This document shows positions 6,149 to 31,544 of a DNA stretch of 32,000 nucleotides, one piece after another. Below the pieces are notes generated by a model, which saw only the letters and a list, made by a program, of their open reading frames with translations, did not search any database and was not told where the DNA came from. The DNA is from Nostoc punctiforme PCC 73102 (GTDB taxonomy: Bacteria; Cyanobacteriota; Cyanobacteriia; Cyanobacteriales; Nostocaceae), in NCBI RefSeq assembly GCF_000020025.1, contig NC_010628.1, forward strand, positions 3,300,001 through 3,332,000, in the 5' to 3' direction. Position 1 is the first letter of the stretch, and every line of letters starts with the position of its first letter. A program made the position numbers and the translations under genes.

Positions 6149-6421
6149 TTAAGCAACCTGCCATTAACGATTTTTCAAACATTTTTTTATAATAGTAGTT
6201 GTACAAAAATACACGCAGTAGACACAAAGCGCCTACTCTACAAGAATGCCAAAGGCGAACCCCCAGGGTATCGCCCTTAGATGAACAGTATTGAACTATA
6301 CCGGGTTAAGCTAAATCAACCGATTTTTTTGATTTTTTACCTTCAGAAAATTACATCATGAATTGTGATACTTCGAGTTAATTGGGGAAAACTGAACTCA
6401 GGTTATCCAGTCGCAAGCTTT

Positions 6422-9400
6422 ATGGTAGAAAATCGAGTTGATGTTCCCGGTTATGGGATTGGTGAAAGAATTTATACCAGCACTCGTACCCTGGTTTACC
6501 GAGGTTGGCGAGAAGCCGATCAAACCCCTGTTGTGATCAAACTTCTGAAAAATTCTTATCCCAGTGTGATTGAGTTGGCTCAATTCAGGAATCAGTACTC
6601 AATTACGAAAATCTTAAATGTTCCTGGGGTTGTTCGGATTTATAGTCTGGAAAATTGTCAAAATCGACCCGCCTTGATTTTAGAAGATTTTGGCGGAATT
6701 TCTTTGAAGGAGTACACTGCTTTTAGAAGGAAAGGACTCGGTGAGATTGGAAATCAGGAAAATTCTTCATCTCTGCATCCTGATTTTTTGACTGAGTTTT
6801 TACAGATTGCGATCGCACTTGCCGATATTCTGGCCGATCTCTACCATCACGAAATCATCCACAAGGATATTAAACCCGCCAATATCCTGATAAACCCTAC
6901 CACAAAGCAGGTCAAACTCATTGACTTTAGCATTGCTTCACTGCTACCAAGAGTTAACCAACTTTCAACCAGCCCGACTGTTTTAGAAGGAACTCTCGCC
7001 TATCTCTCTCCCGAACAAACCGGGCGAATGAATCGGGGGATTGATTATCGCACTGACTTCTATTCTCTCGGAGTCACTTTCTATGAACTCTTAACTGGGC
7101 AATTGCCATTTCAATCGGATGATTTGATGGAATTGGTGCATTGTCACATAGCAAAACAACCACCACTTTTAAATGATAGAGGAGAGATTCCCCAAATTCT
7201 CTGTGATATCGTCATGAAATTGATGGCGAAGAATGCTGAAGATCGCTATCAGAGTGCATTAGGACTAAAACACGATCTGCAAATTTGTTTGGATCAATTG
7301 CAGTCAAGTGGAAATATTACCCCATTTCGGCTAGGGCGCAGGGACGTTTGCGATCGCTTTGCGATTCCCGAAAAACTCTATGGACGGGAAACAGAAGTGG
7401 CCATGCTGCTAGCAACTTTTGAACGGTTGCGCCAGGGAACTTCTGAAATGATCCTGGTAGCAGGTTCCTCTGGTATTGGCAAAACTGCAATTGTCAACGA
7501 AGTTCACAAACCAATCACCCGTCAGCGTGGATACTTTATCAAGGGCAAATTCGATCAATTTAATCGGAATATTCCCTTTTTTGCTTTGGTGCAAGCGTTT
7601 CGAGACTTAATGGCACAACTGCTGACAGAGAGTGATGCTCAAATTGACCAGTGGAAGACTCAAATTTTATCTACCTTGGGTGAAAGTGGTCAAGTAATTA
7701 TTGAGGTGATTCCAGAACTCGAACGAATCATTGGGAAACAGCCCTCACTCCCGGAATTATCGGGTAGTGCTGTTCAAAGCCGCTTCAATTTGCTGTTTCA
7801 GAAATTCATTCAAGTATTTACAACCCAAGAGCATCCTCTAGTTATTTTCCTTGATGATTTACAGTGGGCAGACTCGGCTTCTTTAAAACTGATGCATCTG
7901 TTGATGAGTGAAGCCAGCAACTCTTATTTATTAGTCATTGGAGCTTATCGGGATAATGAGGTTTTCTCTGCACATCCCCTGATGTTGACCATTGAGGAAA
8001 TGCGTCAAGAGGCGATTACAGTTAGTAATATTCTTCTTTCTGCCCTTACCGAAACCGACCTAAATCAACTGATTGCAGATACCCTCAAATATTCAACAGA
8101 ACAAGCAACTGCGATCGCCAATCTGGTGTATCAAAGGACTAAAGGTAATCCATTTTTCACGAACCAGTTTCTTAAGTCGCTGCATGAAGATGGGCTAATC
8201 GCCTTTGCCAGCAGAACAGGAGATTGGCAGTGCAATCTGGTTAAAATCCGGGCGCTGTCTTTTACAGAAGATATTGTCGAGTTTGTGGCGCTGCAACTCC
8301 ACAAATTACCACCGCAGACTCAGGATGTTCTCAAATTGGCTGCTTGTATCGGCAATCAGTTTGATTTAGAAACTATATCAGTTGTCTATCAAAAATCTCC
8401 AGTCCAAACCGCAGCAGATTTGTGGCCAGCCCTCAAGGATGAATTGATCTTACCCAGTGGGGAAGGGTATACATTCTTTCAGGATGAGTCTGTTGTCATG
8501 GATGATTTGACAAATGACAACACACCAATAATTATTACCTACAAATTTTTCCACGATCGCATTCAACAAGCCGCTTATTCACTAATTCCGGACTATCAAA
8601 AACCAGCAACTCACCTAAAGATTGGTCAATTGCTGTTGAGCAATACCCCGGAAACTGAGCAAGAATTGCTGATTTTTGAAATTGTCAATCAATTGAATAT
8701 TGGCATAGAACTGATCGCATCTCAAACCGATCGCGAACGACTGGCACAACTCAACCTGCTGGCAGGAAAAAAAGCCAAATCTTCCACAGCTTACCAGGTA
8801 GCAATTGAGTATTTAACTACCGGGATTCGTTTATTGAGATCCGACTGTTGGCAAAGTCAATATGAATTAACTCTGGCATTGCACGAATCAGCCGCCGATG
8901 CTGCTTATCTTAGTGGCGCGTATGAACAGATGGAAAAATTGACTCAAACAGTCATCCAGCAAGCCAAAACTCCACTGGATCAAGTCGGCATTTACGAAAC
9001 CAAAATCCAGGCATATACAGCTAAAAATGATGTGCTGGGGGCGATCGCGATCGCGCGTCAGGGAATGAGTAAATTCGGCGTGGTTTTCCCAGAAACACCC
9101 ACCCCACAAGACATTCAGCAAGCCCTGCAAGAAACTGCTAATCTGATTAACGGTCGTGATATTGCAGAATTGGTTGACTTACCTGTGATGGTAGCCGCAG
9201 AGAAGCTAGCTGTCACCCGAATTGTGGCAAACGTTGCTCCAGCCGTTTACATTGCCGATCCTAATCTGTTTCCACTACTGGTTTTGTCTCAAGTCCAAGC
9301 ATCCATTGAGTATGGCAATGCTCCATTTTCTGCCTTTTGTTATGGCTGTTATGGCATTCTGTTGAGCGGAATTCTTCAGGATATTGAAACAGCCGATCGA

Positions 9401-12025
9401 GTTGGCAATCTTGCCTTGGCACTAACTGACAAATTTAATATTAGCGACATCAAACCCACAGTATTTTATGTCGTAGGTGCTTTCATCACCTATTTGAAGT
9501 CTCCACTGCAAAAATCTTTGCAGTTAATGCTGGATGGTTACAAAATTGCTCTAGAAACTGGAAATGTATACTACGTAGGTTTCAATACCAAAGATATCTG
9601 CCAATATTCCTATTTTCTAGGTCGAGAGTTGAACTCGTTAGAGGAAGACATCCAGGCTTACTGTCATGTTTTGGAAAATTTTAAGCAAGGTACGACTCTA
9701 AACTATTGCCGTATCTTTTGGCAAACAGTTTTGAATTTGCTTGGTAAAGCTGAGAATCCCTGTATTATCACAGGCGAGGCGCTCAACGAAGCCGAATTTG
9801 TGAATCAACTGGTTCAAGCCAATGAGTTGACAGGGCTTCACTATTTCTTTCTCCACAAATTGATTCTCTGTTATCTGTTTGAAAACCTTTCTCAAGCAGT
9901 GGAAACAGCCGCTCAAGCCAGAGAATATCTAGTTGCGGGAACGGGCTATGCCACTGTACCGATGTTTTATTTTTATGATTCTCTGACGGCTTTAGCAGAG
10001 TATCGCACAGCTACGGCCTATCGCCGAGAAACATTACTGGAACGGGTGACAGAAAACCAGGAAAAGATGCAGACATGGGCGTACCACGCACCCATGAATT
10101 ATTTGCACAAATTTGAACTAGTGAAAGCCGAAGAGTGCCGAGTGTTGGGACAGATGGCCCAGGCAGTGGATCATTACGATCGCGCGATCGCACAGGCAAA
10201 AGCCAATAAATATATTCAGGAAGAAGCCCTCGCCAATGAACTGGCTGCCCGATTTTATTTAGAATGGAACAAAGAAGCGATCGCGCAAATTTATCTCGAA
10301 AATGCCTATTACACTTACCTTAGCTGGGGAGCGATCGCTAAAGTTAACCAGTTGGAACGCCAATATTCTCAATTATTGCTTAAGGTGTTTCAGCAGGATG
10401 AAACTACTTCTTCAACCCTTACTACTACAATCGGATTCAACCAAAGTAGTTCCACTGGGACTGAAGCATTAGATTTAGCAACGGTGATGAAAGCCTCTCA
10501 TGCACTGGCTGGAGAAATTGAGTTAGAAAAGCTGTTGACAACCCTGATGCAGGTTGTAATCGAAAATGCCGGGGCTGATAAATCAGTCCTTCTGCTGCTT
10601 CAAGAGGATAATTGGGTTGTTGTGGCTCAAAAAACTAGCCAAGCGATCTTTGAAGAAGAGCAATTTCTGCCACACCCTACGCCTACCGATGAAAACTTGG
10701 GGATAATAAACCTGCACTCCCTTCCTCTTTCAGCCAGTCAGGATGTTCCCAAAGCGGTTGTGAATTATGTCTCGCGTACCACCGAAACCCTAGTGTTAGA
10801 TGATGCTCGCAAGGAAACTACCTTCGCCAACGATCCCTACATCATTCTATGGCAACCCAAAAGCTTGCTATGTACGCCTATTCACAATCGTGGCCAACTA
10901 ATTGGCATCCTATACCTAGAAAACAGTTTGACAACTGGAGCCTTTACCCAAAACCGTCTTGAGGTTTTGCGGTTGCTCACAGCACAAGCTGCCATCTCGC
11001 TGCAAAATGCCATGTTGTATAACAATCTAGCTGTAGCAAAAGCTCAATTAGAAGATTACAACCATACTTTAGAGCAAAAGGTGGAGCAGAGAACTCTGGA
11101 GTTGAATGATAAAAATCAGCATCTCTCGGAAACTTTAGAGGAACTGCAACACACTCAAAGCCAACTGATTCAAACTGAAAAAATGTCTTCATTGGGACAA
11201 ATGGTAGCAGGTGTTGCCCATGAAATTAACAACCCGATTAACTTTATCTATGGCAACCTTACTTATACCAATGAGTATTGTCAAGATTTGCTGCATCTGG
11301 TTGAGCGGTATCAGCACTACTATCCTCAACCGTTTGTTGAGATTCAAGAAGAACTAGAAGCAATAGATTTAAACTTCCTCAAATCAGACTTACAAAAATT
11401 GCTGCAATCAATGAAAGTGGGAGCAGATCGCATCCGTCAAATTGTCCTTTCTCTCCGCAATTTCTCGCGTTTAGATGAGGCTGAAATGAAAAGTGTCAAT
11501 CTTCATGAAGGCATTGACAGCACCCTGTTAATTTTACACCACCGTCTAGAAGAGAAAGCACACCGCCCCGGAATCGATGTGATTAAGGAATATGCACAGT
11601 TGCCAGAAGTTAGTTGCTACGCCAGTCAGATCAATCAAGTATTCATGAATATTCTGAACAATGCTATTGATGCCTTGGATTCATCATTCACAACTGAAGA
11701 AAGACAAACAAAAATTCCCACTATCCAAATTCGTACCAAAATGACTGATGCTGATACAGTAACTATTCAAATTGCAGATAATGGGCCTGGGATGTGTGAC
11801 GAGGTGAAACAGCGCCTATTTGACCCATTTTTCACAACAAAACCTATAGGCACAGGAACAGGTTTAGGATTATCAATTAGCCACTCGATTGTAGAAAAAC
11901 ATGGGGGAAGACTAAGTGTAATATCCGAATCGGGAAAAGGAGCGGAGTTTTCTCTTTCTATACCTTTACATAATACAGTAGAGCAGGGAGCAGGGGGCAA
12001 GGGGAATGGAAAAAGAGCCAATTAA
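6422..12025 (+). CDS. Multidomain sensor: Ser/Thr protein kinase + AAA(16)-type ATPase + helical/TPR-like region + GAF + histidine kinase (HisKA/HATPase_c)
   Basis: Kinase catalytic loop IIHKDIKPANILI and TLAYLSPEQ; P-loop VAGSSGIGKTAIV; H-box AGVAHEINNPINF; N-box NILNNAIDA; G1 DNGPGM; G2 GTGTGLGLS. The ORF track starts at GTG 6365, but ATG 6422 (MVENRVDVPGYGIGERIY) fits the usual N-terminus of this family better. Confidence 0.9.
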   Translation: MVENRVDVPGYGIGERIYTSTRTLVYRGWREADQTPVVIKLLKNSYPSVIELAQFRNQYSITKILNVPGVVRIYSLENCQNRPALILEDFGGISLKEYTAFRRKGLGEIGNQENSSSLHPDFLTEFLQIAIALADILADLYHHEIIHKDIKPANILINPTTKQVKLIDFSIASLLPRVNQLSTSPTVLEGTLAYLSPEQTGRMNRGIDYRTDFYSLGVTFYELLTGQLPFQSDDLMELVHCHIAKQPPLLNDRGEIPQILCDIVMKLMAKNAEDRYQSALGLKHDLQICLDQLQSSGNITPFRLGRRDVCDRFAIPEKLYGRETEVAMLLATFERLRQGTSEMILVAGSSGIGKTAIVNEVHKPITRQRGYFIKGKFDQFNRNIPFFALVQAFRDLMAQLLTESDAQIDQWKTQILSTLGESGQVIIEVIPELERIIGKQPSLPELSGSAVQSRFNLLFQKFIQVFTTQEHPLVIFLDDLQWADSASLKLMHLLMSEASNSYLLVIGAYRDNEVFSAHPLMLTIEEMRQEAITVSNILLSALTETDLNQLIADTLKYSTEQATAIANLVYQRTKGNPFFTNQFLKSLHEDGLIAFASRTGDWQCNLVKIRALSFTEDIVEFVALQLHKLPPQTQDVLKLAACIGNQFDLETISVVYQKSPVQTAADLWPALKDELILPSGEGYTFFQDESVVMDDLTNDNTPIIITYKFFHDRIQQAAYSLIPDYQKPATHLKIGQLLLSNTPETEQELLIFEIVNQLNIGIELIASQTDRERLAQLNLLAGKKAKSSTAYQVAIEYLTTGIRLLRSDCWQSQYELTLALHESAADAAYLSGAYEQMEKLTQTVIQQAKTPLDQVGIYETKIQAYTAKNDVLGAIAIARQGMSKFGVVFPETPTPQDIQQALQETANLINGRDIAELVDLPVMVAAEKLAVTRIVANVAPAVYIADPNLFPLLVLSQVQASIEYGNAPFSAFCYGCYGILLSGILQDIETADRVGNLALALTDKFNISDIKPTVFYVVGAFITYLKSPLQKSLQLMLDGYKIALETGNVYYVGFNTKDICQYSYFLGRELNSLEEDIQAYCHVLENFKQGTTLNYCRIFWQTVLNLLGKAENPCIITGEALNEAEFVNQLVQANELTGLHYFFLHKLILCYLFENLSQAVETAAQAREYLVAGTGYATVPMFYFYDSLTALAEYRTATAYRRETLLERVTENQEKMQTWAYHAPMNYLHKFELVKAEECRVLGQMAQAVDHYDRAIAQAKANKYIQEEALANELAARFYLEWNKEAIAQIYLENAYYTYLSWGAIAKVNQLERQYSQLLLKVFQQDETTSSTLTTTIGFNQSSSTGTEALDLATVMKASHALAGEIELEKLLTTLMQVVIENAGADKSVLLLLQEDNWVVVAQKTSQAIFEEEQFLPHPTPTDENLGIINLHSLPLSASQDVPKAVVNYVSRTTETLVLDDARKETTFANDPYIILWQPKSLLCTPIHNRGQLIGILYLENSLTTGAFTQNRLEVLRLLTAQAAISLQNAMLYNNLAVAKAQLEDYNHTLEQKVEQRTLELNDKNQHLSETLEELQHTQSQLIQTEKMSSLGQMVAGVAHEINNPINFIYGNLTYTNEYCQDLLHLVERYQHYYPQPFVEIQEELEAIDLNFLKSDLQKLLQSMKVGADRIRQIVLSLRNFSRLDEAEMKSVNLHEGIDSTLLILHHRLEEKAHRPGIDVIKEYAQLPEVSCYASQINQVFMNILNNAIDALDSSFTTEERQTKIPTIQIRTKMTDADTVTIQIADNGPGMCDEVKQRLFDPFFTTKPIGTGTGLGLSISHSIVEKHGGRLSVISESGKGAEFSLSIPLHNTVEQGAGGKGNGKRAN
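11981..12004. repeat. G-rich left arm of the inverted repeat bracketing the four-helix-bundle gene
   Basis: gagcagggagcagggggcaagggg pairs imperfectly with the reverse complement of 12442-12474 (gagcaggggagcagggggcaggggggcaagggg). Confidence 0.65.
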
Positions 12026-12354: not shown

Positions 12355-12441
12355 GTTCTGGGCATTATAGTAACCATAATCAAAAATCCATCCCCCTGGC
12401 TCATCAAACGCTAAATTATTAATCATCCCCCTGTCCCTCTG

Positions 12442-12474
12442 CCCCTTGCCCCCCTGCCCCCTGCTCCCCTGCTC
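12442..12474. repeat. C-rich right arm of the inverted repeat, part of the C-rich tract 12427-12486
   Basis: ccccttgcccccctgccccctgctcccctgctc is the reverse complement partner of 11981-12004. The tract consists of reiterated ccctgc(t/c)cc units. Confidence 0.65.
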
Positions 12475-12485
12475 CCCTGCCCCCT

Positions 12486-18357: not shown

Positions 18358-18388
18358 AAGTCAAAAGTCAAAAGTCAAAAGTCAAAAG
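18358..18388. repeat. Heptamer tandem repeat (AGTCAAA x4 plus a partial unit), STRR-like
   Basis: Direct reading: agtcaaa agtcaaa agtcaaa agtcaaa agt. Confidence 0.9.
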
Positions 18389-18846
18389 TATTATAAAATA
18401 AGCTCTTTAGGGATTTTAAATGGTTGCTCTATTTACGCCGTGGCGTACTAGTTAGATACCTAAATCTCTAAACCGACGCACCTCCTGATATGAACGTGGA
18501 CTTATAGAGTCGTAAACCATTTACAGACTCTACCCTTGGCTTGCTGTTAACCCTGAGCAGCTTAACACATAATACTTTACAGTATTAAAGAATACGTGAT
18601 ATTTTCTACACACCTGCGGGAGATTAGATATTATCGAGTTGCATACATTCACAAACCTGTCAGCACAAGAAACTCGTTCGCTGTGTAGAGGCAATACAGG
18701 AATCAAAATATCCCAAAGGCGTTGGTGATGGTGAAGTTCTAGCTACCTCAAGAAATTATTGACCGGAATCTGTGGGTAGATATATGACAATCAACCTGAA
18801 AGCACGTTTAAGATTTAAGTAAAGAAATATTTCGTAGCTTACAGGC

Positions 18847-22646: not shown

Positions 22647-22667
22647 TTAACCGAACCGTATTGAAAG

Positions 22668-22695
22668 CGATGTCTACGACGGGCTACGCCTACGC
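22668..22695. repeat. 28-nt dispersed repeat, copy 1 (intergenic)
   Basis: cgatgtctacgacgggctacgcctacgc is identical to 31045-31072. Confidence 0.9.
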
Positions 22696-22977: not shown

Positions 22978-23013
22978 ACCTGAAATAAAATATGGCCTAA
23001 GTGAAATTAACTA

Positions 23014-24751
23014 GGGCTTGCTGAAAAAAAAGAAAAGGTTGCAGTCTCTAGATTCTCAGACCAAAGAAGTATATTCAGGTGCAAGACAAGAAGGTAAAAT
23101 AGCCCAAAATCCTTGCATCACAGTGGTTCGTCGCAGCATAGTGTATCATTATTAACTATGTACTGAAAAGAAGAATCAACTCCAATTCCAGCAGAAAGTT
23201 TTGAGCTTCCATTTGAGGGAAAGTTATCATCAGATAATCGTTGGGTAATTATGGCCGATTTAATACCCTGGACAGAATTTGAGTCGGAATATTCTGCCGG
23301 ATTCTCCGCAGAGATAGGGGCACCAGCAAAGTCATTTCGGATGGCGTTAGGTGCATTAATAATTAAAGAGAAACTAAGTATAAGCGACAGGGAAACAGTA
23401 GAGCAAATCAAGGAGAATCCTTATTTACAGTACTTTATAGGGATGTCATCTTATAGTAACAAAACTCCATTTGACGCATCCATGTTAGTACATTTTCGAG
23501 AAAGAATCAGTGCAGAACTAGTCAATAATGTGAATCAAGAAATGGTTAAGAAGATGCTAGAGTTAGCATCTTCTATTGACACCGAAAAAAAACAGAAGAC
23601 GCTCGCGAACTCGCTAACGCTGCGCTATCGACAGAAAAAGCAGCAGAACAAGGTAATACGCTAAGAAATCGAGGGAAATTAATATTAGATGCGACTTGTG
23701 TGCCTAGTGATATCAGCTATCCAACAGATTTAAACCTATTAAATCAAGCGAGAAAACAGACAGAAAGAATAATTGACTTGCTTTATGAACAGATAAAGGG
23801 AATATTAGAGAAAAAACCAAGGACTTACCGAGAAATAGCTAGGAAAGACTACTTAGAAGTAGCTAAAAAACGTCGTGTATCTCAAAAAGAGAGGAGAAAA
23901 GCGATTAAAAAACAACTCCAATATATTAAAAGAAACTTATCCTATATTGACCAGCTAATTGTAGCAGGAGCATCTCTAAAAAGTTTAACTAATAGACAAT
24001 ATAAGATGTTGCTGGTAGTCGCAGAAGTATATCGTCAACAACTATGGCTGTATGAAAATAAAAAGCAGAGCATTGATGACCGTATTGTAAGTTTAAGCCA
24101 ACCACATATCCGTCCAATTGTCCGAGGAAAAGCGGGTAAAGCCGTGGAATTTGGCGCTAAACTATCTGCTAGTTACTTTGATGGATATGCATTTTTAGAC
24201 CATATTAGATGGGATAACTTTAATGAATCAGGAGACTTAAAAACACAAATAGAATCCTTTAAAAACTACACTGGATATTATCCAGAATCTGTTCATGTTG
24301 ATAAAATTTATCGCAAAGCGAGAAAACCGATCTTGGTGCAAAGAAAGAGGTATTAGAATCAGTGGAGTTCCTTTAGGAAGACCGCCAAAAAATGTGAGTA
24401 AAGAAAAAAAGAAGCAAGCTTTACAAGATGAGAGGATTCGTAATTGTATTGAAGGCAAATTTGGACAAGCTAAAAGAAGATTTAGCTTGAGTAGAGTAAT
24501 GGCGAAACTTCCTCATACAACTCTAACTGTGATTGCTATTACTTTTTTAGTCATGAATCTTTCTACTCACCTGTCACGGTTTTTTTGTGCCTTTTTATGT
24601 CTATTTTGGAAAAATAGACATTTTTTAGCGATTGACATAACCAAGCATTATGATTTTGCTAGCTATAGGCAACAAAAACTTATCTTTGACCTTGCTTAAA
24701 TAACTAGTCAACCCAAAAGAATTGCTTTTTTATGACTTTTTCAGCAAGCCC
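23014..24751 (+). mobile_element. IS5-like insertion sequence (1738 bp) with perfect 15-bp IRs and a 6-bp direct repeat
   Basis: IR gggcttgctgaaaaa (23014-23028) against tttttcagcaagccc (24737-24751). TAACTA sits immediately outside both ends (23008-23013 and 24752-24757), consistent with a target-site duplication. Confidence 0.8.
23251..24699 (+). pseudogene. IS5-family-type transposase (InsH/DUF772 N-terminal + DDE_Tnp_1-like), in three frames
   Basis: ORFs 23251-23664, 23700-24356 and 24295-24699. The second frame is actually open from 23580, so the first change is a -1 shift at the A8 run 23585-23592. The second is a +1 change near the A3 at 24315-24317 (…VHVDKIYR / KRENRSWCKERGIRISG…). 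Confidence 0.8.
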
Positions 24752-24861
24752 TAACTAAACTTTGAGAAATGCGATCGCAACTGATTTGCTATATTTCCCT
24801 ATGACAATTAGAAGTATTTTGGTATAAAACACTACCAGTAATCTAGTGGCAGAGATGCATT

Positions 24862-25308
24862 ATGGCACGTCGTAAAAGAAATTCCAGCGTTTTAGAACGA
24901 GCCGATCGCCGGATTGAAAGTTTGCAATCTATTAGTGTACAACTTGACTTTGGCCAAGGATTGACTATACAAGCTTACACCGTGACAATTAACGATCTCC
25001 GGTCTAAGCTTGCTGCTTACAACACTGCATTATCTACCATTGACAAACTTACAGATGACGTGAATAACGCAGAAAAGGCTGTAATAGCGATGTCAGAAAA
25101 AATGTTACTAGCAGTTGGCAGCCGTTACGGTAAAACCAGCCCAGAATACGAGATGGCGGGTGGTGCTAGACGAGGTACTACTAAGAAGAAGCAAAGCGTA
25201 CTAGGCAATTCCAAACCTAGCAATTCTTTAGCAGCTGATTCTGTGAAAGTTTCTTCTGCAAATGGATTTATGAATGGGGTATCGGGTGCGGGTGCGATCG
25301 GGAGTTAA
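24862..25308 (+). CDS. Hypothetical protein (148 aa): basic N-terminus, helical core, Gly/Ser/Asn-rich C-terminal tail
   Basis: ATG-initiated ORF with no competing ORF. I recognise no family motif. Confidence 0.55.
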   Translation: MARRKRNSSVLERADRRIESLQSISVQLDFGQGLTIQAYTVTINDLRSKLAAYNTALSTIDKLTDDVNNAEKAVIAMSEKMLLAVGSRYGKTSPEYEMAGGARRGTTKKKQSVLGNSKPSNSLAADSVKVSSANGFMNGVSGAGAIGS

Positions 25309-25450: not shown

Positions 25451-25640
25451 CAATACGGTTTGGTTAACGTGTTTATTCCTCGAAGATCCCCCCAACCCCC
25501 CTTAAAAAGGGGGGCTTAAAACCCTCTTTATACCCCGAAGATGCCCCCAACCCCCCTTAAAAAGGGGGCTTAAAACCCTCTTTATACCCCCTTTTTAAGG
25601 GGGTCGCCGTAGGCGGGGGGATCTTAACCGAACCCTATTG
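25451..25640. repeat. MITE-like composite repeat (about 190 bp) with terminal inverted repeats and an internal tandem duplication
   Basis: caatacggtttggttaa (25451-25467) against the reverse complement of ttaaccgaaccctattg (25624-25640), 15/17 matched. Inside are two roughly 54-nt tandem copies of c(c/t)cgaagat(c/g)cccccaaccccccttaaaaagggg(g)gcttaaaaccctctttata, plus the hairpin ccccctttttaaggggg. Confidence 0.6.
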
Positions 25641-25734: not shown

Positions 25735-26205
25735 TTGAATACTATGGTTGCAGACCCCAGCATAGATTTTCATAGGTATCTAGAATCTGTGAGCGAGGAT
25801 GAGACATATAGATATTGGCAAGATTTATACACGCCAACTAATGCCCTAGACCGTCAAAGACTTGAACCAAAAAACTCGCGCAGACGCTTAGATTTGAGTT
25901 TGATGGTGCAAACAGTACCACAGCAACGAAAAGGTGAAGCACCAGACAGAGAAAAAATTGAACGGTTGAATATCCTCGAAGGGTTACGGAAGTATGCGCC
26001 CGACCATGTATTGCTAGTAGGAAAACCGGGTTCAGGGAAATCTACAGCTTTAGAACGTTTGTTGTGGGAAGAAGCCGAAAAGCGCAGGGGAGCATGGGAG
26101 CAGAGGAGAAGCGGAAAAGCTGACAAGGATTCCCGTGCTAGTAGAGTTAAGGCGCTACAAAACTTCGGTGCTAGATTTAATTCGAGACTTTTTGACTCGC
26201 CATAA
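25735..26205 (+). CDS. NACHT NTPase fragment 1 (N-terminal region + Walker A)
   Basis: P-loop LLVGKPGSGKSTALERLL. The out-of-frame tail begins after EEAEK. The start is TTG 25735 or ATG 25744. Confidence 0.7.
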   Translation: MNTMVADPSIDFHRYLESVSEDETYRYWQDLYTPTNALDRQRLEPKNSRRRLDLSLMVQTVPQQRKGEAPDREKIERLNILEGLRKYAPDHVLLVGKPGSGKSTALERLLWEEAEKRRGAWEQRRSGKADKDSRASRVKALQNFGARFNSRLFDSP

Positions 26206-27322
26206 TTTAAACCTCAGCACGGAAGAGATTGAAAATCTACTGTTTAAAGAACGATTTTTGTTACTTGTAGACGGTTTGAATGAGTTACCCAACGATGAAG
26301 CTAGACGAGATTTAGACGGATTTCGGCACAAATACCACCGAATCACGCCGATGATTTTTACTACGCGGTATTTGAGGGTGGGGGGTGATTTAGGTATTGA
26401 AAAAAAGCTGGAAATGCAACCACTCACAGAAGCGCAGATGCAGCATTTTGTCCGCGCTTATTCGCCAGAGGTGGGTGATAAAATGCTGCGACAGTTGGCT
26501 GGACGCTTGCGAGAATTGGCGGAAACGCCGTTGTTATTGTCGATGCTGTGTCAAGTATTCAATTATGCTAAACAAATTCCTACTAGTTTAGGTGAGTTGT
26601 TTCGTTGGTTCTCTGGAGAGTATCACAAACTCAAGGAAAATGTACCAATTGCTGAAGAGTTACCTAACTGGCAGGCTGATTTATTGCAGCATCTCGCATT
26701 TGTAATGATGCAAGGCGACAATTTGACTGAGTTGCGATTAACTATTTCTAAACTGCAAGCTAGGAATGTTTTAGCGAAATTTTTACGAAATGAAGAAGTA
26801 CCTTCTGCTAATGATCGTGCTAGACGCTGGCTAGATGATTTGCTCAAATATCACTTGATTCAATTGAGAACAGATAACGAAATTGAATTCCGCCACCAGC
26901 TGATTCAGGAATACTACGCCGCAGAATCTATACTCCTACAGCTTGACAATATTAGTGATGAGAAGCTGAAACGAGATTATCTAAATTGCTTGAAGTGGAC
27001 AGAACCTGTGGCGTTGATGTTAGGGTTGGTGAATGATGAAGGGCAGGCTTTACGAGTGGTGAAGTTAGCCTTAGATGTAGATTTGAAGTTAGGGGCAAGG
27101 TTGGCAGGAGAGGTAAAGCAAGAGTATCAGAAAAAAACAGTAAATTTAATTTTAGAGTTAGACATTCATAAATTACTTCAAGTTGAGTTTTTAGGTATCA
27201 CTCACTCTGAGGATGCCGTTAGTTTTTTAAATAATTCATTACAGCATGAATATTCTGATGTTCGTAAGAGAGCCGCAGATGCGTTAGGAAAATCGGCAAT
27301 GAAGCGGCGGTATCTGCCTTAA
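26135..27322 (+). CDS. NACHT NTPase fragment 2 (Walker B, NACHT helical/WH region, first HEAT unit)
   Basis: This frame is open from 26054 (…[19 protein letters not shown]…). It carries the Walker B motif [25 protein letters not shown], and ends in [18 protein letters not shown] followed by an out-of-frame tail. Confidence 0.8.
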
Positions 27323-29520
27323 TTGGCGCTTTGCAGCATGAATATTCTGATGTTCGTAGGAGAGCCGTATATGCGTTAGGAGAAATCGGCAATGAAGCGG
27401 CGGTATCTGCCTTAATTGGCGCTTTGCAGCATGAATATTCTGATGTTCGTTGTAGTGCCGCAGATGCGTTAGGAAAAATCGGCAATGAAGCGGCGGTATC
27501 TGCCTTAATTGGCGCTTTGCAGGATGAAGATTTTGATGTTCGTAGGAGAGCCGCAGATGCGTTAGGAAAAATCGGCAATGAAGCGGCGGTATCTGCCTTA
27601 ATTGGCGCTTTGCAGCATGAATATTCTGATGTTCGTAGGAGAGCCGTATATGCGTTAGGAGAAATCGGCAATGAAGCGGCGGTATCTGCCTTAATTGGCG
27701 CTTTGCAGCATGAATATTCTGATGTTCGTAGGAGAGCCGTATATGCGTTAGGAGAAATCGGCAATGAAGCGGCGGTATCTGCCTTAATTGGCGCTTTGCA
27801 GCATGAATATTCTGATGTTCGTTGTAGTGCCGCAGATGCGTTAGGAAAAATCGGCAATGAAGCGGCGGTATCTGCCTTAATTGGCGCTTTGCAGGATGAA
27901 GATTTTGATGTTCGTGGGAGAGCCGCAGATGCGTTAGGAAAAATCGGCAATGAAGCGGCGGTATCTGCCTTAATTGACGCTTTGCAGGATGAAGATTTTG
28001 ATGTTCGTGGGAGAGCCGCAGATGCGTTAGGAAAAATCGGCAATGAAGCGGCGGTATCTGCCTTAATTGGCGCTTTGCAGCATGAATATTCTGATGTTCG
28101 TTGTAGTGCCGCAGATGCGTTAGGAGAAATCGGCAATGAAGCGGCGGTATCTGCCTTAATTGGCGCTTTGCAGCATGAATATTCTGATGTTCGTAGGAGA
28201 GCCGTATATGCGTTAGGAGAAATCGGCAATGAAGCGGCGGTATCTGCCTTAATTGGCGCTTTGCAGCATGAATATTCTGATGTTCGTAGGAGAGCCGTAT
28301 ATGCGTTAGGAGAAATCGGCAATGAAGCGGCGGTATCTGCCTTAATTGGCGCTTTGCAGCATGAATATTCTGATGTTCGTTGTAGTGCCGCAGATGCGTT
28401 AGGAAAAATCGGCAATGAAGCGGCGGTATCTGCCTTAATTGGCGCTTTGCAGGATGAAGATTTTGATGTTCGTGGGAGAGCCGCAGATGCGTTAGGAAAA
28501 ATCGGCAATGAAGCGGCGGTATCTGCCTTAATTGACGCTTTGCAGGATGAAGATTTTGATGTTCGTGGGAGAGCCGCAGATGCGTTAGGAAAAATCGGCA
28601 ATGAAGCGGCGGTATCTGCCTTAATTGGCGCTTTGCAGCATGAATATTCTGATGTGCGTTGTAGTGCCGCAGATGCGTTAGGAGAAATCGGCAATGAAGC
28701 GGCGGTATCTGCCTTAATTGGCGCTTTGCAGCATGAATATTCTGATGTTCGTAGGAGAGCCGTATATGCGTTAGGAGAAATCGGCAATGAAGCGGCGGTA
28801 TCTGCCTTAATTGGCGCTTTGCAGCATGAATATTCTGATGTTCGTAGGAGAGCCGTATATGCGTTAGGAGAAATCGGCAATGAAGCGGCGGTATCTGCCT
28901 TAATTGACGCTTTGCAGGATGAAGATTCTGATGTTCGTTGTAGTGCCGCAGATGCGTTAGGAAAAATCGGCAATGAAGCGGCGGTATCTGCCTTAATTGA
29001 CGCTTTGCAGGATGAAGATTTTGATGTTCGTGGGAGAGCCGCAGATGCGTTAGGAAAAATCGGCAATGAAGCGGCGGTATCTGCCTTAATTGACGCTTTG
29101 CAGGATGAAGATTTTGATGTTCGTGGGAGAGCCGCAGATGCGTTAGGAAAAATCGGCAATGAAGCGGCGGTATCTGCCTTAATTGGCGCTTTGCAGGATG
29201 AAGATTTTGATGTTCGTAGGAGAGCCGTATATGCGTTAGGAGAAATCGGCAATGAAGCGGCGGTATCTGCCTTAATTGGCGCTTTGCAGCATGAATATTC
29301 TGATGTTCGTTGTAGTGCCGCAGATGCGTTAGGAAAAATCGGCAATGAAGCGGCGGTATCTGCCTTAATTGGCGCTTTGCAGGATGAAGATTTTGATGTT
29401 CGTGGGAGAGCCGCAGATGCGTTAGGAAAAATCGGCAATGAAGCGGCGGTATCTGCCTTAATTTACGCTTTGCAGGATGAAGATTCTGATGTTCGTTGTA
29501 GTGCTGCAGATGCGTTAGTA
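27242..29520 (+). repeat. Tandem array of about 25 near-identical 93-bp coding repeats, with a 558-bp higher-order repeat
   Basis: The unit-initial CAG codon sits at 27242, then at 27334 + 93k for k = 0..23. Units 4-9 (27613-28170) and 10-15 (28171-28728) encode identical protein, and the only nucleotide difference I found is gtt/gtg at 28656. Confidence 0.95.
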
Positions 29521-30129
29521 AAAATTGCTGACTCTGAAGTTTTGTGTCAGATATGGGAATTACAATTAAAAACACCATCACAAGATAAAAGCGATGCAAT
29601 TTCTAAAATTCAAGAGCGGTGCAAATTTTATAACCATGAAATTTTTTATTCTGTCTTGAATGAGGAAACAAATAACGCCGATCCTTTAACTAGTGTTCTA
29701 AGCAAACTTGATAAAACACTGATAACTATGTCAGAAACTCCTAAAAATGATTTCACAGGTGCTACCTTTGGCCCCATTACAGGCAGTGTTACAGGAAATA
29801 TCCAAGGTGATAATATTGGCACTCAAAACAATTACGCGTCTACAGAAGATATTGCTAAATTAGAAACTGTGCTTGAGCAGTTACTTGAGAAAATGGAGCA
29901 GGATAAACCGACTGTAATCGATGCTCAACCGATTGTTGCTCAAGCTGTTGAGAGTCATCCAGTACTTAAAAATAGGCAAGCAATTGAGCAAGTTATCAAA
30001 AATAATCCAATGCTCAAAGTACGTTTGCAAAGAGCAGTGACAGCAGCAGGTATTGAGACTGTAAAGATTTTATTTGCTCCTGCTGGTATTGCGATTGAAG
30101 CAATTAGGGCTTGGAATGAACCTAGCTAG
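27331..30129 (+). CDS. HEAT repeat (PBS-lyase HEAT-like) domain protein fragment: 24 repeat units plus a 200-aa unique tail
   Basis: 31-aa units of the form [31 protein letters not shown] repeat with an exact 93-nt period from 27334. Confidence 0.85.
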
Positions 30130-30202: not shown

Positions 30203-30372
30203 AGATCCCCCTAAATCCCCCGATAAATTGGGGGACTTTGATTCCGGTTCCCCCCTTTTTAAGGCTACAGTATACACACAAGTCAAATTACCCCCCTTAA
30301 TCTCCCCTTGGAAAGGGGGGAAACAGGAAATCTAGTTCCCTCCCCTTTCCAAGGGGAGGGTTAGGGTGGGGT
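30203..30372. repeat. Cluster of short G/C-run hairpin repeats between convergent genes
   Basis: Examples are gatccccctaaatcccccgataaattggggg, ccccttggaaagggg, and the perfect 10-bp stem ccctcccctt-tcc-aaggggaggg (30338-30360). Related motifs occur at 16865-16882 and 25478-25620. Confidence 0.6.
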
Positions 30373-30401: not shown

Positions 30402-31121
30402 CTATTTCAGACTTGTGTATTTCTTCAATTGCTGCACAAACGCATCATATTCCGGTGACTTCAACCCCAATTGCACTACCTCCAACACTCGCACCATCTG
30501 ATTGTTTAACAACGCTTCCACTGCTAACCACAAACCCGGAAACACCTGAGAGCGAATAATTTCATCTGCACTGGGAGATAGCGATCGATAATCGCCATCA
30601 ATTAGGCAAAACCATTCAATTTGATTCTCGTAAGATTGCCAGATTACGTATTCCAACACCCCATTACGGCGATAAACCTGCTTTTTGCTCCCTGTATCGA
30701 TCGCAACGCTACTTGCTGCAATTTCAACAATCAATTCGGGAGATCCTTCAATGTAACCGTCGCTGCTCAAACGGGTTTGTCCGCCTGCGTTTGGTTTAAT
30801 AAACAGCACTACATCTGGCTGGGGTTCATTGTCTAAATCTAGTCTGACGGTTGGGGCATCACTCAAATCAACGCCAGGAGTCAATGATTAGTAGACTCCT
30901 AACCAAGTTATGGCCCGACTGTGGGGTTTGCCATGCTGCTCATGTCTTACAGGAGATGCTACGTAAACGATTCCTTCAATCAGTTCTGCTTTCTTGATAT
31001 GGGGTGCAGCCGCATAACGCCGTTCAAATTCAGGGCGAGTTAGGCGATGTCTACGACGGGCTACGCCTACGCCACTTTCAAGCGGAGGCAGATGTCTCTG
31101 GGGTGAGTACTCTCTAACCAT
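30402..31121 (-). pseudogene. Uma2 family (DUF820, PD-(D/E)XK-like) endonuclease with an in-frame TAA stop
   Basis: ORFs 30888-31163 and 30402-30884 are in the same frame: …ITWLGVY-TAA-S-L-TPGVDLSDAPTVRLD… The likely start is ATG 31119-31121 ([10 protein letters not shown]). The downstream part has the typical Uma2 motif PELIVEIAASS. Confidence 0.8.
31045..31072. repeat. 28-nt dispersed repeat, copy 2 (in-frame inside the Uma2 gene)
   Basis: Identical to 22668-22695. On the minus strand it encodes GVGVARRRH within [19 protein letters not shown]. Confidence 0.9.
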
Positions 31122-31544
31122 TTGCCCATCCTTGGAGTTGCCGGATACTTCTGACTTTAGCAAACCTCAGTTATCAGTTAGAATTTATTGATTTGCTGCT
31201 TTCCTCAAATTCCAAAAATTATAAAATGTAATGTTAATTGTGATCGTGTGTTCTACTGTGCGATCGCTTACTCGCCCAACTTAGGCATCGCCGACAATTG
31301 ATGCTGCATAACAGAGGCCAACTAGCTATCATTAGCTAAGTGGTATGCCAGATAAATTGACGGCAATACCGTTTAGTTAGCAGTCTTTATCAACTGCTTA
31401 CACTCGCACCCATAAAAATTAGTTTGATCCACCTTCTATTCCCTGCTTTTTATTGTGATACGCATTGGCTCAAAGTACTCTAAATAAGTACGGGGTGCAA
31501 AAAATACAAAAATTTCTTCAAGGATTAAGATTAAGGATACGGCT

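What the first reader, a model, noticed from the sequence alone, without database searches (positions are those of the whole stretch)
25735..30129. NLR-like NACHT NTPase fused to a giant HEAT-repeat sensor, split by two frameshifts
Three same-strand ORFs read as one protein of about 1450 aa once two frame changes are bridged. The layout is as follows. First comes an N-terminal region of about 100 aa with no effector fold I recognise. Then come the P-loop GKPGSGKST, the Walker B motif [10 protein letters not shown] and a NACHT-type helical region ([15 protein letters not shown]). These are followed by about 25 HEAT-like repeats and a unique tail of about 200 aa. NTPase plus repeat-sensor is the STAND/NLR architecture. 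Bacterial NACHT and Avs relatives are known antiphage sensors, and such genes are expanded in multicellular cyanobacteria. I know of no experimental characterisation of HEAT-array versions with this degree of internal identity. The locus is flanked by IS and MITE-like repeats, and a CHAT protease gene lies in the same window. This is my best candidate for an undescribed conflict or sensing system, although here it is apparently inactivated.
Basis: partly seen in the sequence, partly recalled or inferred. Interest (0 to 1): 0.75.

Follow-up and report, generated by a model that had tools for sequence, protein, structure and literature searches.

The report
Broken NACHT–HEAT immune-sensor-like gene in Nostoc
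This is a dead copy (two real frameshifts) of a common cyanobacterial NLR-like gene; its sensor is a very recently amplified array of 25 near-identical HEAT repeats, and its previously unexamined tail looks like a portable signalling module.

Summary
ORFs 25735-26205, 26135-27322 and 27331-30129 are pieces of one gene of Nostoc punctiforme PCC 73102. Intact single-ORF orthologs exist in other Nostoc strains (81-89% identity). The repaired 1461-aa protein passes Pfam's NACHT threshold. Both frame breaks are real, because independent short-read assemblies reproduce them. FS1 is a 53-nt deletion relative to the closest relative. FS2 is an A5-to-A4 loss in the first repeat. The P-loop is therefore separated from Walker B, so this copy is a pseudogene.

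The HEAT array has 24 full 93-nt units plus one degenerate unit. It includes a 558-nt block duplicated with one mismatch. Variation sits in 9 codons, which include five of the six binding-surface positions randomised in artificial alphaRep binders.

NACHT-HEAT proteins, near-identical repeats and frameshift-disrupted STAND genes are already described for cyanobacteria, including this genome. So this is a new member of a known kind, not an undescribed system.

One lead is new. The last ~135 aa is a portable C-terminal module. In relatives it is a separate downstream gene whose N-terminal ~25-aa motif matches the C-terminus of the NACHT-HEAT protein. That mirrors NLR amyloid-signalling pairs.

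The parts
25744..26091 (+). N-terminal ~85 aa pre-NTPase region plus the start of the NACHT domain, including P-loop GKPGSGKST (26020-26046). Annotated in RefSeq as the separate 153-aa 'ATP-binding protein' WP_063721249.1 (ORF 25735/25744-26205).
26086..26094 (+). Frameshift 1 (frame 1 to frame 2). It is the site of a 53-nt deletion between GGAGCA direct repeats relative to the closest relative L001, and a net +19 nt relative to L002/L003.
   Evidence: reproduced in 23 independent Logan contigs
26093..27241 (+). Rest of the NACHT domain (Walker [11 protein letters not shown] 26255-26284), the helical/winged-helix region and the first degenerate HEAT turns. RefSeq WP_041565391.1 'NACHT domain-containing protein' covers the part from its own start at MLDLIRDF to 27322.
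27289..27292 (+). Frameshift 2 (frame 2 to frame 1). The A run is 4 bases long where the other K-type repeat units have 5.
   Evidence: same A4 version in Logan contigs L006, L007 and L008
27242..29472 (+). 24 full 93-nt (31-aa) HEAT_PBS/alphaRep-type repeat units. There are 12 distinct DNA versions, and 13 of 93 columns are variable.
27613..28728 (+). Two tandem copies of a six-unit (558-nt) higher-order block, differing at one base. This marks a very recent segmental duplication.
29473..29565 (+). Degenerate terminal (capping) HEAT unit: [31 protein letters not shown].
29566..29727 (+). Post-array linker with the conserved [11 protein letters not shown] segment.
29728..29838 (+). Start of the portable tail module. 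It has a conserved internal Met and a G/N/Q/I/V-rich motif, [37 protein letters not shown], which AlphaFold2 leaves disordered.
29839..30129 (+). ~95-aa helical-bundle domain of the tail module (pLDDT 86-91) plus the stop codon.
23007..24758 (+). IS element with 22-nt terminal inverted repeats. Its transposase (DUF772) is broken into three ORFs. It is absent from the syntenic loci L002 and L003.
25472..25603 (.). Palindromic MITE-like repeat (55-nt unit x 2.2) just upstream of the gene. Short-read contigs break here.
30291..30369 (.). 28-nt inverted repeat (86% complementary) downstream of the stop codon.

Best explanation
This is a recently inactivated chromosomal copy of a cyanobacterial NLR-like STAND NTPase with a NACHT-HEAT architecture.

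Shown:
- It is one gene, broken by a 53-nt deletion in the linker after the P-loop helix and by a 1-nt deletion in the first HEAT unit.
- No polypeptide therefore carries both Walker A and Walker B.
- The HEAT array was amplified very recently by tandem and six-unit block duplication.
- The array differs only at cassette-like codons. These coincide with the concave-face positions that bind targets in alphaRep proteins.

Inferred for the intact family:
- The HEAT solenoid binds a protein ligand, most plausibly from a phage or other invader.
- Binding releases the NACHT domain for nucleotide exchange and oligomerisation.
- Oligomerisation clusters the C-terminal motif-plus-helical module, which passes the signal on.
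- The module acts either in cis (fused form, as here) or on a separate downstream protein whose N-terminal motif matches the sensor's C-terminus (two-gene form in relatives).
- Repeat shuffling supplies new binding specificities. Frequent gene death is the other side of that rapid turnover.
For: One gene:
- Orthologs at 81-89% identity span ORF1 plus ORF2 as single ORFs and carry the same tail.
- The locus is syntenic: amidase, CobN, a 146-aa ORF, NACHT-HEAT, then Uma2.

NACHT:
The two halves are sub-threshold when split.

Real lesions.

Array:
- 13 of 93 columns are variable; 12 are nonsynonymous and fall in 9 codons, and 1 is a synonymous singleton.
- The 558-nt blocks differ at 1 nt.
- Pooled with two ortholog arrays, 3 of 43 variable columns are synonymous-only, against an expected fraction of 0.244 (P = 0.0024).
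- The most variable positions over six arrays are 2, 5, 6, 9, 10, 13 and 17.
- These include all six alphaRep library positions, mapped through the in-register alignment to alphaRep PDB chains.

Conflict context: relatives have TIR or trypsin N-termini, and the literature supports this reading.

Tail:
- It is always C-terminal and occurs on NACHT-HEAT, Roc-COR, dynamin-like, CHAT, REase and pentapeptide proteins.
- Matched-motif gene pairs occur in at least 14 loci.
Against: - There is no experimental phenotype for any close relative.
- No PADLOC defence model matches the NACHT part, and NCBIfam antiphage_EruA scores 23 bits against a cut-off of 1000.
- The locus is not in a defence island. 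Its neighbours are housekeeping genes.
- No recognised effector domain is present.
- The tail fold has no PDB match, so the output step is pure inference.
- The array copy number rests on one Sanger-era assembly, and short reads cannot span it.
- ORF3 alone (HEAT plus tail) resembles natural small HEAT-plus-tail proteins, so some residual function is not excluded.
Confidence: 0.78

Rival explanations
1. The pieces are still functional. ORF3 (932 aa, HEAT array plus tail) would be made on its own and act as a NACHT-less binder/adaptor, like the natural ~216-aa HEAT-plus-tail proteins. ORF1 and ORF2 would be inert or regulatory.
For: - Many natural proteins consist only of a few HEAT units plus the same tail module, for example P0240 and P0289-P0304.
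- ORF3 has no internal disruption over 2.8 kb.
- The tail module keeps its own conserved Met.
Against: - ORF3 starts only at a TTG inside a repeat unit, with no demonstrated promoter or ribosome-binding site.
- The absence of further lesions is equally explained by the very recent age of the amplification: one synonymous difference in 2.2 kb.
- The neighbouring IS transposase and Uma2 gene are decaying too.
Confidence: 0.12
2. The frameshifts are sequencing or assembly artefacts, and the gene is intact in the organism.
For: - FS2 lies in a homopolymer.
- The array is hard to assemble, and many orthologs in draft genomes are truncated at contig ends.
Against: - FS1 is a 53-nt difference, not a base-calling slip.
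- The exact ORF1 product occurs on 23 independently assembled short-read contigs.
- The A4 version of FS2 occurs in three contigs from different runs at 100% identity.
Confidence: 0.02
3. The breaks are programmed recoding or phase variation. The full-length protein would be made by ribosomal frameshifting, or switched on and off by slippage in the A run.
For: The A4/A5 run at FS2 could in principle revert by slippage.
Against: - FS1 needs a +1/-2 shift somewhere in a stretch with no slippery heptamer, and it arose by a 53-nt deletion, which cannot revert.
- A4 is far shorter than known slippage tracts.
- Orthologs need no recoding.
Confidence: 0.02
4. The family is not an immune sensor. It would be a regulatory or housekeeping STAND protein, and the HEAT_PBS repeats would relate to phycobiliprotein lyase or degradation functions.
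For: - HEAT_PBS repeats are typical of CpcE/NblB-type proteins. A phycocyanobilin lyase chain is among the PDB hits, and one homolog is named 'phycocyanin operon protein Z'.
- The genomic context is chromosomal, syntenic and not a defence island.
Against: - The repeats evolve by amplification, with variation restricted to binding-face codons and almost no synonymous change.
- Repeat number differs between close strains: 4-7 versus 24 units.
- Paralogs carry TIR or trypsin domains.
- The tail is shared with CHAT, REase and Roc-COR proteins.
- Frequent pseudogenisation fits a conflict gene.
Confidence: 0.08

Closest known systems
Bacterial NACHT (bNACHT) NLR-related proteins (Kibby et al., bioRxiv 10.1101/2022.07.19.500537)
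   Same: - A central NACHT module with C-terminal 'antigen receptor-type' supersecondary repeats; HEAT is explicitly listed.
- Strong expansion in multicellular cyanobacteria.
- Paralogs of this gene carry TIR or trypsin effectors.
   Different: - This subfamily has no recognisable N-terminal effector.
- It carries a C-terminal motif-plus-helical module instead.
- No defence model hits it and no phenotype is known.
- This copy is a pseudogene.
Npun_R6612 WRAP WD40 propeller on a STAND ATPase of the same genome (Dunin-Horkawicz, Kopec & Lupas 2014; Pereira & Lupas, bioRxiv 10.1101/2022.03.13.484165)
   Same: - Same organism and same phenomenon.
- A sensor-side repeat array of near-identical units with essentially no synonymous differences, read as very recent amplification.
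- Many relatives are disrupted by frameshifts or stops, read as rapid turnover in innate immunity.
   Different: - The array here is a HEAT alpha-solenoid rather than a WD40 beta-propeller.
- There are 24-25 units organised in a six-unit higher-order repeat.
Fungal NLRs with highly conserved repeats (HNWD/NWD; Paoletti 2007; Dyrka 2014, PMC4986451)
   Same: - Internal repeat identity at or above 85%.
- Diversifying change confined to a few surface positions.
- Repeat-number polymorphism and repeat shuffling.
- One Podospora NACHT/TPR(HEAT) example is reported.
   Different: - This gene is bacterial.
- It has no HET or other N-terminal death domain.
- Selection was tested here only by counts, not by codon models.
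alphaRep artificial binders built on the HEAT_PBS-type 31-residue unit (PMC3754942)
   Same: - The units align in register at E = 1e-94 to 1e-118.
- Library positions 18, 19, 22, 23, 26 and 30 correspond to unit positions 5, 6, 9, 10, 13 and 17.
- All six are among the seven most variable natural positions.
   Different: alphaRep proteins are synthetic and have no NTPase. The comparison is useful only as structural evidence that the variable face is the binding face.
NLR-associated amyloid signalling pairs (HET-S/NWD2; bacterial BASS/Bell; Bab/Agp; bioRxiv 10.1101/2020.01.06.895854 and 10.1101/2024.11.07.622273) and the EAD coupling principle (Kaur et al. 2020, PMC7159879)
   Same: - In relatives, a ~20-27-aa G/N/Q/I/V-rich motif is shared by the NLR and the product of the adjacent gene. 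That product is a ~100-aa helical protein.
- Motif classes co-vary between partners.
- The module is also found on effectors (CHAT, REase) and on other NTPase switches, as EADs are.
   Different: - The topology is mirrored: the motif is at the NLR C-terminus after the sensor repeats, and at the N-terminus of the partner.
- Only the short motif is duplicated, not the helical domain.
- There is no evidence of fibril formation.
- No Pfam EAD or Bell model matches.
- In the window the two parts are fused.

Membership tests
NACHT NTPase (Pfam PF05729) | HMM score above the gathering threshold, with Walker A and Walker B in one domain | tested here: met
- The split ORFs are sub-threshold: 22.1 bits for ORF2 and none for ORF1.
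- In the genome as it stands, the two motifs lie on different ORFs.
STAND/NLR tripartite architecture | NOD followed by C-terminal superstructure-forming repeats | tested here: met
   NACHT is followed by 25 HEAT units. HEAT_2 scores 618 bits and HEAT_PBS 456 bits. Orthologs have the same order in one ORF.
STAND/NLR tripartite architecture | N-terminal effector or adaptor domain | tested here: not met
   Only ~85 residues precede the P-loop, with no Pfam, NCBIfam or PADLOC hit. Paralogs with TIR or trypsin N-termini exist.
Experimentally defined antiphage STANDs (bNACHT, Avs, EruA) | Match to a curated defence model, or a demonstrated phage-defence phenotype | tested here: not met
   - PADLOC hits only HEAT-type models (HEAT-ARM_XIII and others) and weak P-loop hits (mad8).
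- NCBIfam antiphage_EruA scores 23 bits against a cut-off of 1000.
- The phenotype cannot be tested with these tools.
NLR-type 'highly conserved repeat' sensors (fungal HNWD-like; bacterial WRAP-like) | Internal repeat identity of at least ~85% over at least 100 aa | tested here: met
   Pairwise unit identity is 89-100% (mean 94.5%) at the DNA level over 24 units, and 74-100% (mean 85%) at the protein level over the 23 units after the frameshifted first one.
NLR-type 'highly conserved repeat' sensors (fungal HNWD-like; bacterial WRAP-like) | Variation concentrated at a few surface positions, with an excess of nonsynonymous change and repeat-number differences between strains | tested here: met
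   - There are 9 variable codons; 12 variable columns are nonsynonymous and 1 is synonymous.
- Pooled over three arrays, 3 of 43 variable columns are synonymous-only (P = 0.0024).
- The positions match the alphaRep binding face.
- The window has 24 units against 4-7 in orthologs.
- No codon-model test was run.
Pseudogene | Reading frame disrupted relative to intact orthologs, and the disruption is real in the organism | tested here: met
   orthologs; independent short-read contigs reproduce both lesions.
NLR-associated amyloid signalling motif pair (FASS/BASS type) | A short motif shared between the NLR and the product of the adjacent gene | tested here: inconclusive
   - The feature is met in relatives with the two-gene form: L010/L011, L012, L013, L015, L017-L019, L022, L037, L040, L049, L071, L081 and L099.
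- It does not apply to the window, where motif and helical domain are fused in one ORF.
- The topology is the reverse of the described pairs.
NLR-associated amyloid signalling motif pair (FASS/BASS type) | The motif forms amyloid or prion-like assemblies | not testable with these tools
   The only available evidence is that AlphaFold2 leaves the motif disordered (pLDDT 30-40) and that its composition is G/N/Q/I/V-rich.

The most novel reading that the evidence does not exclude
The NACHT-HEAT family signals from its C-terminal end. The signal would pass through a ~25-residue beta-rung or amyloid-like motif that templates or docks the same motif at the N-terminus of a ~100-aa helical protein.

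- That helical protein is fused in the window and encoded by the next gene in relatives.
- This is a mirror image of the HET-S/NWD2 and Bab/Agp amyloid-signalling pairs.
- The same module links NACHT, Roc-COR and dynamin-like switches to CHAT, REase and pentapeptide proteins across cyanobacteria.
- I found no description of this arrangement in the papers I could search.
Probability: 0.3. Interest if true: 0.7.

Novelty: new member of a known kind. Interest (0 to 1): 0.4.

Why it matters
The locus itself is a dead gene, so it matters mainly as a clean natural example.

- It shows that the 'amplify, shuffle, discard' mode of sensor evolution, known for WD40 and TPR arrays of fungal and bacterial NLRs, also operates on HEAT solenoids.
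- Nature varies the same positions that protein engineers randomise in alphaRep binders.
- It gives a dated snapshot: a 558-nt block duplicated with a single mismatch, next to two fresh lesions.

The family-level lead matters more. If the C-terminal matched-motif module is a signalling device, it would explain how effector-less cyanobacterial NLRs produce an output. It would also extend amyloid- or EAD-type coupling to a new topology, and it can be tested with short peptides and two-gene constructs.

Tried and rejected
- **Family scans of the tail and the upstream ORF.** Pfam and NCBIfam scans of the tail and of the upstream 148-aa ORF found nothing significant. That ORF is syntenic in close orthologs only and absent next to more distant homologs. 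I therefore do not count it as part of the system.
- **PADLOC.** It gave no NACHT-type defence model.
- **Locus search with the tail alignment.** The broad alignment A2 was too divergent for a locus search. A narrower alignment, A3, worked.
- **Linkage to the CHAT gene.** Rejected. It is 24 kb away behind a Mo-oxidoreductase, a kinase, a Na/H exchanger, an SDR, an amidase and CobN, and it has no tail module.
- **Sequencing error.** Rejected.
- **Programmed frameshifting.** Rejected (there is no slippery site and the lesion is a 53-nt deletion).
- **The long antisense ORFs 27219-29438 and 27284-29599.** These are artefacts. The repeat unit has no stop codon in two reverse frames.
- **Expression.** I could not tell whether the Logan runs are DNA or RNA, so nothing can be said about expression.


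Full report
**What is there.** The window comes from the Nostoc punctiforme PCC 73102 chromosome. ORF2 is identical to WP_041565391.1 and ORF1 to WP_063721249.1, both on an 8,234,322-bp contig.

Three + strand ORFs lie at 25735-26205, 26135-27322 and 27331-30129, in frames 1, 2 and 1.
- P-loop at 26020-26046
- Walker B at 26255-26284
- IFTTRY at 26354-26371
- TPLLLSMLC at 26525-26551

Tandem Repeats Finder reports 27242-29525 as 24.6 copies of a 93-nt unit, with 94% matches and no indels.

**One gene, not three.** I searched with a chimera of ORF1 and ORF2 and found 792 homologs. The best hits are Nostoc proteins 81-89% identical over 99% of the query. Full-length orthologs are single ORFs: P0005 (864 aa), P0006 (833 aa), P0015 (835 aa) and P0018 (802 aa). 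Each has the same N-terminus, NACHT region, HEAT array and ~200-aa tail.

Two of these orthologs (L002, L003) sit in the same neighbourhood as the window:
- peptidoglycan amidase (seen in L002)
- CobN/Mg-chelatase
- a 146-aa ORF
- the NACHT-HEAT gene
- Uma2 (seen in L002)

When split, neither half reaches Pfam's NACHT threshold.

**The two lesions.** Frameshift 1 is structural. Relative to the closest relative (L001, Nostoc sp. C3-bin3), 53 nt lying between two GGAGCA direct repeats are missing. Relative to L002 and L003, the linker after the P-loop helix is a net 19 nt longer. Part of the missing segment matches short dispersed repeats elsewhere in a Nostoc genome. This linker is therefore a landing site for small mobile repeats.

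Frameshift 2 is the loss of one A from an A5 run in the first repeat unit.

Both lesions are real:
- The exact 153-aa ORF1 product is encoded on 23 short-read contigs from at least six sequencing runs.
- Three of those contigs extend far enough to show the A4 version next to the unit-1-specific AAGAGA cassette, at 100% identity.

Walker A and Walker B are thus on different polypeptides, and the gene is a pseudogene. Programmed recoding is implausible. A 53-nt deletion cannot revert, there is no slippery site, and the orthologs need no recoding.

**The HEAT array.** There are 24 full units plus a degenerate capping unit.
- Only 13 of 93 nucleotide columns vary.
- Twelve of these are nonsynonymous and fall in nine codons: 2, 4, 5, 9, 10, 12, 13, 17 and 29.
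- The single synonymous difference is a singleton.
- The variants behave like cassettes that recombine: HEYS/DEDF/DEDS, RR/CS/GR/KR, AD/VY, K/E and G/D/Y.
- The unit string is EABFAABCDGAABCDHAIJCDKBL.
- Blocks 27613-28170 and 28171-28728 differ at one base, so a six-unit block was duplicated very recently.

Ortholog arrays show the same invariant scaffold and the same variable positions, and each array has its own homogenised helix B.

I pooled the window with two ortholog arrays. Three of 43 variable columns are synonymous-only, where 24% would be expected. This gives P = 0.0024, treating columns as independent.

The units align in register with alphaRep chains in the PDB. The alphaRep library positions 18, 19, 22, 23, 26 and 30 form the target-binding concave face. 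They map to unit positions 5, 6, 9, 10, 13 and 17. All six are among the seven most variable positions across six natural arrays. The array therefore looks like a natural binder library.

**How unusual is this?** Not very, at the level of kind.
- Kibby et al. list HEAT among the C-terminal 'antigen receptor-type' repeats of bacterial NACHT proteins. They also note the expansion of these proteins in multicellular cyanobacteria.
- For this same genome, the WRAP WD40 array of Npun_R6612 on a STAND ATPase is the textbook case of near-identical repeats with no synonymous changes. Its relatives are often disrupted by frameshifts, which was read as rapid turnover in innate immunity.
- Bacterial and fungal NLR repeats with 80-90% internal identity and hypervariable surface positions are documented.
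- Intact relatives with 14-17 units exist: P0133 (1155 aa) and P0136 (1225 aa).
- Many orthologs in draft genomes are cut at contig ends inside the array. Repeat number in relatives is therefore underestimated.

No curated defence model matches the NACHT part, and no phenotype is known. 'Antiphage' therefore remains an inference. It rests on family resemblance, on paralogs with TIR or trypsin N-termini, and on the mode of evolution.

**The tail.** The last ~135 aa begins with a conserved Met at 29728. It consists of a G/N/Q/I/V-rich motif that AlphaFold2 leaves disordered, followed by a confidently predicted ~95-aa helical bundle with pLDDT 86-91. The module has no Pfam, NCBIfam or PDB match.

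Profile searches show that it is a portable module:
- It is always at the C-terminus.
- It has 391 confirmed occurrences among species-representative genomes.
- Among 49 fused carriers, 34 are pentapeptide-repeat proteins, 8 carry HEAT repeats (7 of them with NACHT), 4 are CHAT, 3 are LRR-Roc-COR and 3 are DpnII/MboI-type REase.
- It also occurs on a dynamin-family GTPase.
- There are many standalone proteins of 120-140 aa and HEAT-plus-tail proteins of ~216 aa.

Standalone copies often sit 4-51 nt downstream of a gene whose extreme C-terminus repeats the motif found at the standalone protein's N-terminus. That gene is a NACHT-HEAT or NACHT gene, a HEAT-bearing C-terminal fragment of one, or in one case (L013) an unannotated 407-aa protein. 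One example pair is ...GSTSIGSVNIDSTIHGNQIGTQHNK* followed by MTNKKDINFGGASIGGVNIDSTVHGNQIGTQHNYA. Another is ...NSEIVQIIEKNDGTVIAKKI* followed by ...NSEVVQIIEKNDGTVIGKSV.

In the Scytonema pair, the two copies are identical at 47 of 54 nt, and five of the seven differences are synonymous. At least four motif classes exist, and each sensor's motif matches partner motifs of its own class.

This is the criterion used to define NLR-associated amyloid signalling motifs. It also resembles the EAD coupling principle. The topology is mirrored, however, and nothing here shows fibril formation. I treat it as the most interesting lead, not as a result.

**Surroundings.**
- An IS lies at 23007-24758, with 22-nt inverted repeats and a transposase broken into three ORFs.
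- Palindromic MITE-like elements lie at 25472-25603 and 30291-30369.

The IS is absent from the syntenic loci. The downstream Uma2 gene carries an in-frame stop where the ortholog has Gln. Three neighbouring genes in this stretch are therefore decaying. The CHAT gene at 6-1616 is 24 kb away and unrelated.

**Verdict.** The architecture and the inactivation are supported. The claim that this is an undescribed system is not.

The locus is a recently dead member of a known, abundant cyanobacterial NLR-like family, with an unusually long and young HEAT array. Interest is moderate. It comes mainly from the clean picture of repeat evolution and from the C-terminal matched-motif module seen in the family.

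Noticed in passing
window 30402-31163 (- strand): The downstream Uma2-family gene is split by an in-frame stop at 30888-30890 (GVY*SL), where the ortholog in L002 reads GVYQSL. It is otherwise ~90% identical over 234 aa, so it is a second fresh pseudogene next to the NACHT-HEAT gene.
   Followed up: yes
window 23007-24758: An IS element with 22-nt terminal inverted repeats. Its DUF772 transposase is broken into three overlapping or adjacent ORFs (23251-23664, 23700-24356, 24295-24699). It is absent from the syntenic loci L002 and L003.
   Followed up: partly
window 27219-29438 and 27284-29599 (- strand): Two antisense ORFs of 739 and 771 aa run across the HEAT array. They exist only because the 93-nt unit has no stop codon in two reverse frames. 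They are not genes.
   Followed up: yes
window 22667-22695 and 31044-31072: A perfect 29-nt dispersed repeat, GCGATGTCTACGACGGGCTACGCCTACGC. The second copy lies inside the Uma2 coding sequence, where it encodes [10 protein letters not shown], and the peptide is also present in the ortholog. This is a small dispersed repeat living inside a gene.
   Followed up: partly
L001 4305-4403 versus window 26083-26128; L002 601-653, 7551-7573, 12753-12774: The linker after the P-loop helix carries an insertion in the window/L001 lineage. Its core (CTTCTCTCCGAGACGCTGCGCGA) recurs at intergenic sites of another Nostoc genome. L001 tolerates it in frame (+72 nt). The window has a 53-nt shorter, out-of-frame version. 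The order of events (excision versus insertion) is unresolved.
   Followed up: partly
window 29728 (ATG); fused relatives listed: In fused proteins the tail module still begins with its own Met (…TMSETPK…). This suggests recurrent gene fusion, or possibly internal translation initiation of the module.
   Followed up: no
L017 192-4177, L018 1105-5378, L019 1105-5378: A three-gene arrangement in soil-metagenome cyanobacteria: a HEAT-repeat protein fused to a dual-specificity phosphatase domain (DSPc), then a 735-aa NACHT protein, then the standalone tail protein 11 nt downstream.
   Followed up: no
window 6365-12025: A 1886-aa multidomain protein: Ser/Thr kinase, AAA_16 (STAND-like) NTPase, GAF and histidine kinase. 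A protein with a similar domain set also lies near the ortholog locus L003.
   Followed up: no
window 12427-12485 and 18358-18389: Short tandem repeats: CCCCCTGC-type (period 8/15/23) and AAGTCAA x 4.6. These are typical cyanobacterial STRR-like intergenic repeats. The first resembles the GGGGAGCA-rich sequence at frameshift 1.
   Followed up: no
window 24862-25308: A 148-aa ORF (ACC81225.1, hypothetical) is conserved directly upstream of the NACHT-HEAT gene in close Nostoc orthologs, but it has no family match and is not found next to distant homologs.
   Followed up: partly
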